Assembly: GCF_044324875.1 (NCBI RefSeq)
Contig: NZ_CP172185.1
DNA length: 64,000 bases
Direction: 5' to 3' (one strand)
Origin: Escherichia coli
GTDB lineage: Bacteria > Pseudomonadota > Gammaproteobacteria > Enterobacterales > Enterobacteriaceae
The position numbers are program-made. This document shows positions 6,001-9,000 of the stretch, piece by piece. Positions within the stretch are counted from its first letter, which is position 1; every line of letters begins with the position of its first letter.

Positions 6001-9000
6001 TGTAGCCCTTGCGGTTTTCACTCATGTTTTCGTAGTTCAGGCCGGTAGTGAACGTGAGCGGAACGCCCAGTTCACCACGGTGTGTCCAGCGGCTGTCTAT
6101 CCCCTGGTAATGGCGTTGCAGAGTAATCACGCCGCCCGCATGTGACGGATTAAGTTGGGGAGCCATCGGGATTGACTGGTACTGGGTCGTTTCTCGCTCC
6201 CCGGCATACATCATCACACTCATCTCATCCCGCGAACTCAGGCTACGCTCATAGCGCAGCCCAGCCTGAGTTTGCTTGATGGTTTTTCGCGTGTAGTACT
6301 GTTCAGCGCGTGGCGCTTGTTGCGGATTCGCCTTCCATTCTGCTTCGGTTAGCCCACCTGGGTCATCTGCTTTGATATCCACACTATTGAAAATCAGGCT
6401 TAATTTGCTGGCGTCATCAATGCGTACGCCCAGTTTGGCATTGGCTAAATTTTTCTGTGCGCCACTATGATCACGATAGCCGTGGGTCGTAAAGCGCGTG
6501 GTTGAGACGGTGTAATCGACATCGCCAGGCTGTGTGCCGTCGCCCGTTGCGCCCGTTGCTTTCAGCCCATAGCGCCAGCTGCCAAAACTGCCGTAGTAAC
6601 TACTGGCTTCAATGGTTGGTGGCTGTTGTCCGGTCTGGGTGATGACATTCATTACACCGCCAGACGCGTTGCCATACAGAGCAGAGAAGGGGCCGCGCAG
6701 CACTTCCACATTTTGTACACTGCTTAAATCGATGTTGGATGTTTGCCCTTGTCCGTCGGGCATGGTGGCGGGAATACCGTCCACATACAGGCGAATACCG
6801 CGAATTCCGTAAGTGGAGCGGGAGCCAAATCCGCGAATCGACAGCTGTAAATCTTGCGCATAGTTCTGCCGGTTTTGTACCTGCAAACCAGGCACGCTGG
6901 TCAGTGATTCGGACAAGTTAATGCGCGGTGTTGCCAGGCGCATCTCCTCGCCATCCACCACGCTTACTGCTGCTGGGGTATCCAGTTCTGAAACCACCTG
7001 CGGTGCGGCACTGACAATCATAGTCTGTTCATCAGCGGCAAAAACAACGGGGGAAAGGACAAGCAGTGCGGGCAAAACGGTCTGTCGGACGGAAAAAATC
7101 TTCATGAAAAAAGCCAGGTTAAGAATGGGAAAGCGCCGCTATGGTAATAAAATTGTAAATTTATGGAAAACGAAACGGCACGATACGTTAAGTAATTGAG
7201 AAAATTGTAGTCGTAACGGCAAGAAATGCTCCACATTTGAGAAAATAATGATTACCATTCCCATTTATAACAAGAGCGTAACGATGATTACGCTTAGCGA
7301 AGCATTGTGAAGCAGCAAAAATATCGGTTCATCAAAGGGAGTCGTCATGCATTTACGTCATCTGTTTTCATCGCGCCTGCGTGGTTCATTACTGTTAGGT
7401 TCATTGCTTGTTGCTTCATCATTCAGTACGCAGGCCGCAGAAGAAATGCTGCGTAAAGCGGTAGGTAAAGGTGCCTACGAAATGGCTTATAGCCAGCAAG
7501 AAAACGCGCTGTGGCTCGCCACTTCGCAAAGCCGCAAACTGGATAAAGGCGGCGTGGTTTATCGTCTTGATCCGGTCACTCTGGAAGTGACGCAGGCGAT
7601 CCATAACGATCTCAAGCCGTTTGGTGCCACCATCAATAACACGACTCAGACGTTGTGGTTTGGTAACACTGTAAACAGCGCGGTCACGGCGATAGATGCC
7701 AAAACGGGCGAAGTGAAAGGCCGTCTGGTGCTGGATGATCGTAAGCGCACGGAAGAGGTGCGTCCGCTGCAACCGCGTGAGCTGGTGGCAGACGATGCCA
7801 CGAACACCGTTTACATCAGTGGTATTGGTAAAGAGAGCGTGATTTGGGTCGTTGATGGCGAGAATATCAAACTGAAAACCGCCATCCAGAACACCGGTAA
7901 AATGAGTACCGGTTTAGCGCTGGATAGCAAAGGCAAACGTCTTTACACCACTAACGCTGACGGTGAATTGATTACCATCGACACCGCCGACAATAAAATC
8001 CTCAGCCGTAAAAAGCTGCTGGATGACGGCAAAGAGCACTTCTTTATCAACATCAGCCTTGATACCGCCAGGCAGCGTGCATTTATCACCGACTCTAAAG
8101 CGGCAGAAGTGTTAGTGGTCGATACCCGTAATGGCAATATTCTGGCGAAGGTTGCGGCACCGGAATCACTGGCTGTGCTGTTTAACCCCGCGCGTAATGA
8201 AGCCTACGTAACGCATCGTCAGGCAGGTAAAGTCAGTGTGATTGACGCGAAAAGCTATAAAGTGGTGAAAACGTTCGATACGCCGACTCATCCGAACAGC
8301 CTGGCGCTGTCTGCCGATGGTAAAACGCTGTATGTCAGTGTGAAACAAAAATCCACTAAACAGCAGGAAGCTACCCAGCCGGATGATGTGATTCGTATTG
8401 CGCTGTAATAGATATGGCGAGGGTGAAAACGGAGAGACTTGCCTGACTTTTATCACGCCGTATCCGGCACCTTCGTCAGTAATTTGAATTTGCCCGGCAC
8501 GTAGCCGGGCAATTTTGCAATTAACTCGCCGTTTCAGGTTTAAACACAATTTCCTGTTGTTCTTCATCTTCCTCGACGACTGGCGCAGTGCTGTGAATTT
8601 CAGCAACGCGTTTGCGCACACCAAACCAGCCTATAACCAGCAGAATACCGATAATCGGCAGCGCCGCGATGGTATAAGTCCCGTTCGGGTAATCGAACGC
8701 CATCAGCACCAGGACGCTCAGCAAAAACAGTAATGTCAGCCAGGAAGTGAAGGGCGCGCCAGGCAGTTTAAAACTGACATCCGCTGCTTTGCCTTCTTTA
8801 ATCGCTTTACGCAGGCGCATCTGGCACACGATGATAAACGCCCATGAAGCGATGATTCCCAGCGACGCGAAGTTCAACACAATCTCAAATACGCGCGACG
8901 GCACCAGATAGTTGAGGAATACGCCGACGACATACACAACCAGTGTCGCCAGAATCCCGGCATACGGCACATGCTGACGACTCATTTTCGCCATAAAACT

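What the first reader, a model, noticed from the sequence alone, without database searches (positions are those of the whole stretch)
7245..7260. Fur-box-like sequence between the TonB-dependent receptor gene yncD and yncE
ATAATGATTACCATTC closely matches the Fur consensus core and sits in the divergent promoter region of two genes with iron-related roles.
Basis: partly seen in the sequence, partly recalled or inferred. Interest (0 to 1): 0.3.

Follow-up and report, generated by a model that had tools for sequence, protein, structure and literature searches.

The report
Known Fur operator on yncE promoter
This is the binding site of the iron-sensing repressor Fur on the promoter of the E. coli gene yncE; it is real, strongly conserved and already documented, and it controls yncE rather than the neighbouring transporter gene, which imports the cofactor PQQ and not iron.

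Summary
The 16-mer ATAATGATTACCATTC is exactly at 7245-7260. It is the core of a 25-bp Fur operator (7241-7265). A Fur matrix derived de novo from 17 other E. coli Fur ChIP-exo peaks scores 7247-7265 at 20.5 bits, which equals the median of bona fide sites and is the top hit in the window. Published ChIP-exo and ChIP-seq peaks from MG1655, W3110 and CFT073 map onto the motif. The published yncE transcription start (window 7267) puts the operator at -26 to -2, covering the -10 hexamer. yncE rises 9- to 280-fold in fur mutants of eight strains. All 77 usable yncE loci from other Enterobacteriaceae carry the box about 100 bp upstream of the start codon (14.9-25.6 bits; controls at most 6.3). Nine Citrobacter loci with no neighbouring transporter gene still carry it.

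yncD is now named PqqU and imports PQQ, not iron. Its start site lies 107-131 bp from the box, and it does not respond to Fur in MG1655, although it is derepressed 4- to 8-fold in W3110 and 042.

A Fur box at yncE was already reported in 2014 and Fur control of yncE in 2003. Verdict: confirmed, ordinary, already known. Side finds: a conserved 5' leader hairpin and a candidate RyhB pairing block.

The parts
7241..7265 (.). Fur operator GAAAATAATGATTACCATTCCCATT. It holds two overlapping matrix matches, 7247-7265 (20.5 bits) and 7241-7259 (9.3 bits), and reads as four nAnnAT hexamers GAAAAT/AATGAT/TACCAT/TCCCAT.
   Evidence: De novo Fur matrix scan. Published peaks map here: W3110 and MG1655 ChIP-exo peaks at window 7254-7266, CFT073 ChIP-seq centre at window 7248. 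Conserved at about 0.89-0.97 across Enterobacteriaceae.
7245..7260 (.).
   Evidence: Mean majority-base frequency is 0.966 across 78 distinct intergenic sequences.
7230..7235 (+). yncE promoter -35 hexamer TCCACA, inside the conserved block CTCCACATT (7229-7237).
   Evidence: Placed from the published TSS with a 17-bp spacer. Conserved at about 0.90. The hexamer assignment is inferred.
7253..7258 (+). yncE promoter -10 hexamer TACCAT (TACTAT in most other genera), lying inside the Fur operator.
   Evidence: The hexamer assignment is inferred from the TSS.
7267..7267 (+). yncE transcription start site, giving an 80-nt leader.
   Evidence: Kim et al. 2012 TSS table: position 1521251, 489 reads. 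Their 51-nt upstream string matches window 7217-7267 exactly.
7275..7294 (+). Conserved stem-loop at +9 to +28 of the yncE mRNA (AGCGTAA-CGATGA-TTACGCT). It is not a second Fur box.
   Evidence: All 7 stem pairs tested (7 of the 9 pairs predicted) show compensatory changes. 92.6% of cells are paired against 33-50% in slid controls, and 0 of 500 shuffles reach the covariation score. The Fur matrix gives only 6 bits here.
7298..7310 (+). Conserved leader block CGAAGCATTGTGA, a candidate RyhB pairing site complementary to the RyhB core ACAUUGCUUCC.
   Evidence: 33 of 76 distinct leaders have a contiguous helix of at least 11 bp, against 1.3% of shuffles. RyhB activation of yncE-lacZ is published. 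Energy-based statistics are weak. The assignment is inferred, not shown.
7347..8408 (+). yncE coding sequence (periplasmic beta-propeller protein of unknown function), the gene regulated by the operator.
7134..7169 (-). pqqU (yncD) weak promoter: TSS 7134, -10 TACCAT at 7146-7141, -35 TTTCCA at 7169-7164. It lies 107-131 bp from the operator.
   Evidence: Kim et al. 2012 TSS at 1521118, 11 reads, 29-nt leader.
5003..7105 (-). pqqU (= yncD) coding sequence, the TonB-dependent PQQ importer. It is the divergent neighbour and not the primary target of the box.

Best explanation
The sequence is the operator through which iron-loaded Fur represses the yncE promoter. Fur dimers bind 7241-7265. That span covers the promoter spacer, the -10 hexamer (7253-7258) and the DNA up to -2 of the start site at 7267, so bound Fur excludes RNA polymerase. 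When iron is scarce, Fur releases and yncE is transcribed at very high levels.

Shown (published data mapped here, plus my computations):
- Fur occupies this spot in vivo under iron-replete conditions.
- yncE is derepressed in fur mutants.
- The motif scores like bona fide Fur sites.
- The motif overlaps the mapped core promoter.
- The motif is conserved with yncE across Enterobacteriaceae.

Inferred:
- Steric occlusion is the mechanism.
- Two overlapping Fur dimers bind.
- The -35 and -10 hexamer assignments.

The neighbouring pqqU gene is at most a secondary, conditional target.
For: - **Matrix score.** 20.5 bits at 7247-7265, equal to the median of 17 independent Fur sites and the top hit of the window. 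An overlapping match lies 6 bp away, and Chen et al. 2007 describe clusters of Fur sites spaced 3 or 6 bp apart.
- **In vivo binding.** The CFT073 ChIP-seq peak centre 1711868 (height 845) falls inside the box. The W3110 ChIP-exo peak 1524928-1524940 and the MG1655 peak 1521238-1521250 both map to window 7254-7266, and both were seen under iron-replete conditions only. MG1655 ChIP-seq also reports Fur bound upstream of yncE.
- **Expression.** yncE rises 147- to 205-fold in CFT073 delta-fur. Its log2FC is 3.1 to 8.1 in 8 of 9 strains, and it belongs to both Fur iModulons.
- **Promoter position.** The TSS at window 7267 puts the operator at -26 to -2.
- **Conservation.** All 77 usable yncE loci have a hit of 14.9-25.6 bits, at about -100 from the ATG in nearly all, while controls reach at most 6.3 bits. 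The operator and the -35 block are about 0.9 or more conserved, against 0.52-0.65 in the surrounding intergenic DNA. The 55-bp promoter-operator segment is identical in 4,966 of 5,411 E. coli records.
- **Prior report.** A Fur box at yncE was found with PRODORIC matrices.
Against: - I found no in vitro footprint, gel shift or operator mutagenesis for this particular site. A Reg-Seq supplement note states that the Fur box is not annotated in RegulonDB.
- Chen et al. 2007 do not mention yncE in their main text.
- The palindromised matrix gives a less exceptional score: 16.9 bits, reached by 10% of simulated windows.
- The operator also contains the -10 hexamer, so part of its conservation could come from promoter function alone.
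- The E. coli copy carries two T-to-C changes that move it away from the consensus found in most genera.
Confidence: 0.93

Rival explanations
1. The box is a shared bidirectional operator. Fur bound at 7241-7265 represses both yncE and the divergent pqqU (yncD), as at the fepA-fes or fepB-entC intergenic regions.
For: Gao 2023 assign the single W3110 ChIP-exo peak to both genes. They report yncD derepressed in delta-fur in W3110 (log2FC 2.95, p 3e-51) and 042 (2.02). MAPS co-purified yncD/yncE as a head-to-head pair. A minus-strand promoter-like site (TTCACA 7311-7306, AATCAT 7289-7284) would send transcripts through the operator if it were active.
Against: - The mapped pqqU TSS (7134) is 107-131 bp from the operator, and no Fur-like site lies near it.
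- yncD is unchanged in MG1655 delta-fur (log2FC 0.12), although the MG1655 and W3110 intergenic DNA is identical.
- yncD is listed as Fur-responsive in only 2 of 9 strains.
- Two groups state that yncD is not Fur- or iron-regulated and does not transport iron.
- Nine Citrobacter loci lack pqqU upstream but keep the box at the same distance from yncE.
Confidence: 0.2
2. The match is a chance AT-rich sequence, or simply the yncE core promoter. Fur dependence of yncE would then be indirect or work through another site.
For: The motif overlaps the -10 hexamer, which would be conserved anyway. 2-10% of simulated 64-kb windows contain an equally good match somewhere.
Against: Three independent in vivo binding datasets peak on the motif. 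No other Fur-like site exists in the intergenic region. Conservation covers the whole 21-25 bp, not just the hexamer, and the conserved bases are the Fur-specific ATGATTA...ATT...CATT positions. The chance of such a hit falling in this one 241-bp region is about 1e-4, extrapolated.
Confidence: 0.02
3. The operator is larger and includes a second Fur box at 7280-7298 (AACGATGATTACGCTTAGC), forming an extended array downstream of the start site.
For: It matches the 19-bp consensus at 12/19 on the minus strand and repeats ATGATTAC from the main box.
Against: It scores only about 6 bits with the palindromic matrix and below 3 bits with the asymmetric one. The region evolves by compensatory base-pair changes that keep an RNA stem-loop, not a Fur motif. 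The ChIP-exo peaks sit on the upstream box.
Confidence: 0.04
4. The motif is primarily the site of another regulator, for example the MarA site annotated at -41.5 of yncEp, or Zur.
For: RegulonDB carries a low-confidence MarA annotation at yncEp, and Huja 2014 list 'Fur, MarA' for yncE.
Against: The MarA position (-41.5) is upstream of the box, which spans -26 to -2. Reg-Seq did not recover it under salicylate. De novo motif discovery on Fur targets reproduces exactly this kind of sequence.
Confidence: 0.01

Closest known systems
Classical E. coli Fur boxes at iron-uptake promoters (fhuA, fiu, cirA, sodA, mntH, sufA, entC and others)
   Same: It has the same motif (core TGATAATnATTATCA, or the 19-bp GATAATGATAATCATTATC) and the same score range as those sites (20.5 bits; their leave-one-out range is 9.3-25.3, median 20.5). 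It is occupied in iron-replete cells only. It overlaps the -10 region and start site, and the gene is strongly derepressed in delta-fur.
   Different: [quoted passage not shown] The right half of the E. coli copy is degenerate (TTCCCATT instead of TTCTCATT). I found no in vitro footprint for it.
Bidirectional Fur-controlled intergenic regions (fepA-fes, fepDGC-entS, fepB-entC)
   Same: Two divergent genes flank a short intergenic region with Fur bound in it, and one flanking gene is a TonB-dependent receptor.
   Different: In those regions both transcription units are iron-uptake genes and both are Fur-repressed. Here the receptor is the PQQ importer PqqU. Its promoter lies more than 100 bp from the single operator, and its Fur response is absent in MG1655 and modest in W3110 and 042.
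Fur plus RyhB dual control, as at cirA and shiA (coherent feed-forward)
   Same: yncE is repressed by Fur at its promoter, and its translation is raised by RyhB, which Fur also represses. The leader carries a conserved block complementary to the RyhB core.
   Different: The pairing site and the activation mechanism have not been demonstrated for yncE. CopraRNA ranks it poorly and my duplex-energy statistics are weak.

Membership tests
Fur box / directly Fur-repressed promoter (E. coli Fur regulon) | Sequence matches a Fur weight matrix at the level of experimentally bound sites | tested here: met
   20.5 bits with a matrix learned de novo from 17 other ChIP-exo regions, equal to their leave-one-out median. 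It is the top hit in the 64-kb window, and matches the classical consensus at 15/19.
Fur box / directly Fur-repressed promoter (E. coli Fur regulon) | Fur occupies the site in vivo in an iron-dependent way | tested here: met
   The binding data are published. I mapped the coordinates onto the sequence. MG1655 and W3110 ChIP-exo peaks fall at window 7254-7266 (iron-replete only), and the CFT073 ChIP-seq centre falls at window 7248.
Fur box / directly Fur-repressed promoter (E. coli Fur regulon) | The downstream gene is derepressed in a fur mutant or under iron limitation | tested here: met
   Published RNA-seq read here: yncE log2FC is 3.1-8.1 in 8 of 9 strains and 147- to 205-fold in CFT073. 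McHugh 2003 is cited for up to 18-fold.
Fur box / directly Fur-repressed promoter (E. coli Fur regulon) | The operator overlaps the core promoter, so that binding can occlude RNA polymerase | tested here: met
   The published TSS maps to window 7267, so the operator spans -26 to -2 and contains the -10 hexamer TACCAT.
Fur box / directly Fur-repressed promoter (E. coli Fur regulon) | The site is conserved in orthologous promoters relative to flanking non-coding DNA | tested here: met
   77 of 77 loci have a hit of 14.9-25.6 bits, at about -100 in nearly all. Conservation is 0.89-0.97 against 0.52-0.65 in the flanks.
Fur box / directly Fur-repressed promoter (E. coli Fur regulon) | Direct binding shown in vitro (footprint or gel shift), or loss of regulation on operator mutation | not testable with these tools
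   None was found in the papers I could read. The Reg-Seq note says the box is not annotated in RegulonDB.
Shared bidirectional Fur operator (both divergent genes repressed) | Both flanking genes respond to Fur | tested here: inconclusive
   yncD log2FC is 0.12 (not significant) in MG1655, but 2.95 in W3110 and 2.02 in 042. It is not listed for the other strains. The K-12 intergenic sequences are identical.
Shared bidirectional Fur operator (both divergent genes repressed) | The operator overlaps or adjoins both core promoters | tested here: not met
   The pqqU TSS at window 7134 is 107-131 bp from the operator. The best Fur-like score near the pqqU promoter is 1.8 bits.
Shared bidirectional Fur operator (both divergent genes repressed) | The box co-occurs with the gene pair rather than with one gene | tested here: not met
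   Nine Citrobacter loci without pqqU upstream retain the box at about -98 from yncE.

The most novel reading that the evidence does not exclude
Fur bound at the yncE operator also gives a conditional, dataset- or strain-dependent repression of the PQQ importer gene pqqU. It would act either through an unmapped upstream pqqU promoter whose transcripts must cross the operator, or through longer-range Fur binding. PQQ scavenging would then be tied to iron status, contrary to the current statement that PqqU is Fur-independent.
Probability: 0.2. Interest if true: 0.35.

Novelty: already known. Interest (0 to 1): 0.1.

Why it matters
It matters little as a discovery. Fur control of yncE has been known since 2003, the box was predicted in 2014, and the binding peak has been mapped repeatedly since 2014-2015.

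The useful outputs are these:
- **Base-level map.** The yncE control region is now laid out in one place: operator at -26 to -2, -35 and -10 hexamers, TSS, a covarying 5' hairpin, and a candidate RyhB site.
- **Corrected assumption.** The neighbouring TonB-dependent receptor is not an iron transporter.
- **Flagged discrepancy.** Published data disagree on whether pqqU responds to Fur (no in MG1655; yes in W3110 and 042).
- **Comparative result.** The box travels with yncE across about 20 genera. That makes yncE one of the most stably Fur-controlled genes of unknown function, and supports an iron-related role for YncE.

Tried and rejected
- **Second Fur box at 7280-7298.** Rejected. The matrix score is low and the covariation shows an RNA stem-loop.
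- **Full-length RyhB-leader duplex folding.** Uninformative, because 9% of shuffles did as well. Restricting to the RyhB core gave only p = 0.03-0.08. A contiguous-helix count across genera was more telling but is not independent evidence, because the leaders are related.
- **Consensus promoter scan of the intergenic region.** It missed both real promoters, which match at only 8/12. It reported one minus-strand candidate and one terminator-like site, and the latter is the leader hairpin read on the other strand.
- **Papers that gave nothing.** Chen 2007 (information-theory Fur model) and the 2023 'Revisiting Fur regulon' paper do not mention yncE or yncD in their main text. Baba-Dikwa 2008 on YncE is not held. 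The Beauchene 2015 supplements are not held. McHugh 2003 and Seo 2014 were used only through other papers' citations.
- **Internal positive controls in the window.** The adhP promoter, a published weak Fur target, scores only 6.0 bits. I did not locate the yddA promoter in the window, which is not collinear with K-12 or ST2747 beyond about 8.9 kb.
- **An 8-codon upstream ORF starting in the hairpin loop (7284-7310).** Considered and set aside, because by my reading of the alignment the ATG is missing in 7 of 25 aligned leaders.
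Full report
**Observation.** The 16-mer ATAATGATTACCATTC is at window 7245-7260 as stated. It lies in the 241-bp intergenic region between two divergent genes. 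One is a 700-aa ORF on the minus strand (5003-7105). The other is a 353-aa ORF on the plus strand (7347-8408). The region is 99.2% identical to many RefSeq E. coli chromosomes, where the genes are annotated pqqU (the current name of yncD) and yncE.

**Is it more than chance?** The 19-mer 7244-7262 matches the textbook Fur consensus GATAATGATAATCATTATC at 15/19 on the minus strand. It is the only 15/19 match in the window on either strand.

To avoid relying on a remembered consensus, I built my own matrix.
- I took W3110 Fur ChIP-exo peak coordinates for 17 classical targets from Gao et al. 2023. These were fepA-fes, fepD-entS, fepB, entC, fhuA, fiu, fhuE, tonB, sufA, cirA, exbB, yqjH, mntH, ydiE, yojI, sodA and nrdH.
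- I fetched 141 bp around each peak and ran an unseeded EM motif search.
- It returned ATTGATAATCATTATCATT, which is the Fur box.

With this matrix, window 7247-7265 (AATGATTACCATTCCCATT) scores 20.5 bits. That equals the median leave-one-out score of the training sites and is the best hit in the window. An overlapping match at 7241-7259, shifted by 6 bp, scores 9.3 bits. Only 2% of Markov-1 simulated 64-kb windows contain an equal score anywhere (10% with a palindromised matrix). Chen et al. 2007 describe clusters of Fur sites spaced 3 or 6 bp apart, and this pair fits that pattern.

**Published binding and expression data, mapped onto the sequence.**

| Source | Method | Published position | Window position |
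|---|---|---|---|
| Banerjee et al. 2020, CFT073 | ChIP-seq centre (height 845) | 1711868 | 7248 |
| Gao et al. 2023, W3110 | ChIP-exo | 1524928-1524940 | 7254-7266 |
| Gao et al. 2023 MG1655 sheet (peaks marked as also in Seo et al.) | ChIP-exo | 1521238-1521250 | 7254-7266 |

- The CFT073 peak lies between yncD_1 and yncE, inside the box, and yncE is 147- to 205-fold up in delta-fur.
- Both K-12 peaks were seen only under iron-replete conditions.
- The gene labels in the MG1655 supplementary sheet are shifted by one row from about P37. I corrected for this using the coordinates.
- Beauchene et al. 2015 also list yncE as bound upstream by Fur.
- yncE log2 fold changes in delta-fur are 3.1 to 8.1 in eight of nine strains, and yncE belongs to both Fur iModulons.
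- Huja et al. 2014 had already detected a Fur box upstream of yncE with PRODORIC matrices.
- McHugh et al. 2003 is cited for up to 18-fold iron and Fur regulation.

**Position relative to the promoters.** Kim et al. 2012 mapped the yncE start at 1521251 (489 reads, 80-nt leader). Their 51-nt upstream string matches window 7217-7267 exactly, so the TSS is window 7267. The best hexamers are TCCACA (7230-7235), a 17-bp spacer, and TACCAT (7253-7258). The operator therefore spans -26 to -2 and contains the -10 hexamer. This is the classic geometry for repression by promoter occlusion, although the mechanism itself is inferred. The yncD/pqqU start was mapped at 1521118 (11 reads), which is window 7134 on the minus strand. 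That is 107-131 bp from the operator. No Fur-like sequence lies near that promoter (best 1.8 bits).

**Comparative evidence.** A scan of one genome per species returned 80 yncE loci, from Escherichia, Citrobacter, Salmonella, Enterobacter, Leclercia, Lelliottia, Klebsiella, Raoultella, Kluyvera, Atlantibacter and other genera.
- In all 77 loci with enough upstream sequence, the best Fur-matrix hit in the 260 bp upstream of yncE scores 14.9-25.6 bits. It lies 94-107 bp before the ATG in nearly all (three loci at -55 or -59).
- Equal-sized control segments from the same loci never exceed 6.3 bits.
- An alignment of 78 distinct intergenic sequences shows a sharp footprint. The other intergenic stretches average 0.52-0.71.
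- Most genera carry AATGATTACTATTCTCATT (23.1 bits). Escherichia has two T-to-C changes (7256, 7261) that slightly weaken both the box and the -10 hexamer.
- Nine Citrobacter loci have no pqqU upstream of yncE yet keep the box at the same distance, so the box belongs to yncE.
- Within E. coli, the 55-bp promoter-operator segment is identical in 4,966 of 5,411 records.

**The neighbouring gene.** yncE is iron-regulated, but its function is unknown. It encodes a periplasmic seven-bladed propeller. yncD is PqqU, the high-affinity TonB-dependent importer of pyrroloquinoline quinone. It does not support iron uptake and has been described as unresponsive to Fur and iron. The MG1655 data agree (log2FC 0.12). 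However, Gao et al. report yncD up 7.7-fold in W3110 delta-fur and 4-fold in strain 042, and they assign the peak to both genes. MG1655 and W3110 have identical intergenic DNA, so the difference is not in cis. It may reflect growth conditions or batch, or a real conditional effect. I rate a genuine shared-operator function at about 0.2.

**Surroundings.**
- *The second Fur-like sequence.* The weaker Fur-like sequence at 7280-7298 lies in an inverted repeat (7275-7294) at +9 to +28 of the yncE mRNA. Across 25 diverse leaders, all seven stem pairs tested show compensatory changes. 92.6% of cells are paired against 33-50% in slid controls, and none of 500 shuffles reaches the covariation score. 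It is a conserved 5' stem-loop, not a second operator.
- *The conserved leader block.* Just downstream is a conserved block (7298-7310, GAAGCATTGTGA; GGAAGCGATGT in most genera). It is complementary to the RyhB core ACAUUGCUUCC. 33 of 76 distinct leaders have a contiguous helix of at least 11 bp, against 1.3% of shuffles.
- *What this suggests.* RyhB is reported to raise yncE translation. yncE therefore probably sits in a Fur/RyhB coherent feed-forward loop. The pairing site is not proven, the energy-based statistics are weak and CopraRNA ranks yncE poorly.

**Comparison with what is known, and verdict.** The site meets every computational and literature-based criterion for a direct Fur-repressed promoter. 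The one thing missing is a site-specific in vitro footprint or operator mutagenesis, which I did not find. A Reg-Seq supplement, which says it was prepared with an AI assistant, states that the box is not annotated in RegulonDB. The site does not meet the criteria for a shared bidirectional operator.

Noticed in passing
window 7275-7294: Conserved stem-loop at +9 to +28 of the yncE mRNA (AGCGTAA-CGATGA-TTACGCT). All 7 tested pairs show compensatory changes across 25 enterobacterial leaders. Its function is unknown; it may stabilise the 5' end.
   Followed up: yes
window 7298-7315: Conserved leader block GAAGCATTGTGAAGCAG (GGAAGCGATGT in most genera), complementary to the RyhB core ACAUUGCUUCC. 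It is a candidate site for the published RyhB activation of yncE. On the minus strand the same block contains a -35-like TTCACA.
   Followed up: partly
window 7256 and 7261: Escherichia-specific T-to-C changes lower the Fur-matrix score from 23.1 bits (most genera) to 20.5, and turn the -10 hexamer from TACTAT into TACCAT.
   Followed up: partly
L025, L026, L028, L030, L033, L035, L036, L040, L094 (about 100 bp upstream of yncE at about 1501): Nine Citrobacter loci have no pqqU within 1.5 kb upstream of yncE but retain the Fur box at about -98. I did not examine what replaces pqqU.
   Followed up: partly
window 6960-6996 (inside the 5' end of pqqU): A second MG1655 Fur ChIP-exo peak (P43, iron-replete, not in Seo et al.) maps here. 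The best Fur-matrix hit across 6940-7240 is only 1.8 bits (7010-7028), so there is no Fur-like motif at the peak. It may be a shoulder or an artefact.
   Followed up: partly
Gao et al. 2023 Dataset 2, MG1655 sheet (not window sequence): Gene and TU labels are shifted by one row relative to the peak coordinates from about P37. For example, the tonB-region peak is labelled acnA and the yncE peak is labelled adhP. Coordinates must be used, not labels.
   Followed up: yes
window 25507-25525 and 21666-21684: These are the next-best Fur-matrix hits. One (16.0 bits) lies inside an ORF and the other (12.6 bits) is intergenic. Both are in a stretch that is not collinear with strain ST2747. I did not determine the genes or their significance.
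   Followed up: no
window 50028-50046: Upstream of adhP, a published weak Fur ChIP target, the best Fur-matrix match is only 6.0 bits. Real weak Fur sites can therefore score far below the yncE box.
   Followed up: partly
window 7284-7310: The ATG in the hairpin loop opens an 8-codon upstream ORF (MITLSEAL*) in E. coli. By my reading of the alignment the ATG is absent in 7 of 25 aligned leaders, so it is probably not functional.
   Followed up: partly
window 8521-10071 and beyond about 8.9 kb: The window has a full-length 516-aa minus-strand ORF where strain ST2747 has only an amino-acid permease fragment annotated as involved in L-asparagine transport. Exact 25-mer matches to ST2747 stop beyond about 8.9 kb, which suggests a strain-specific variable region.
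   Followed up: no
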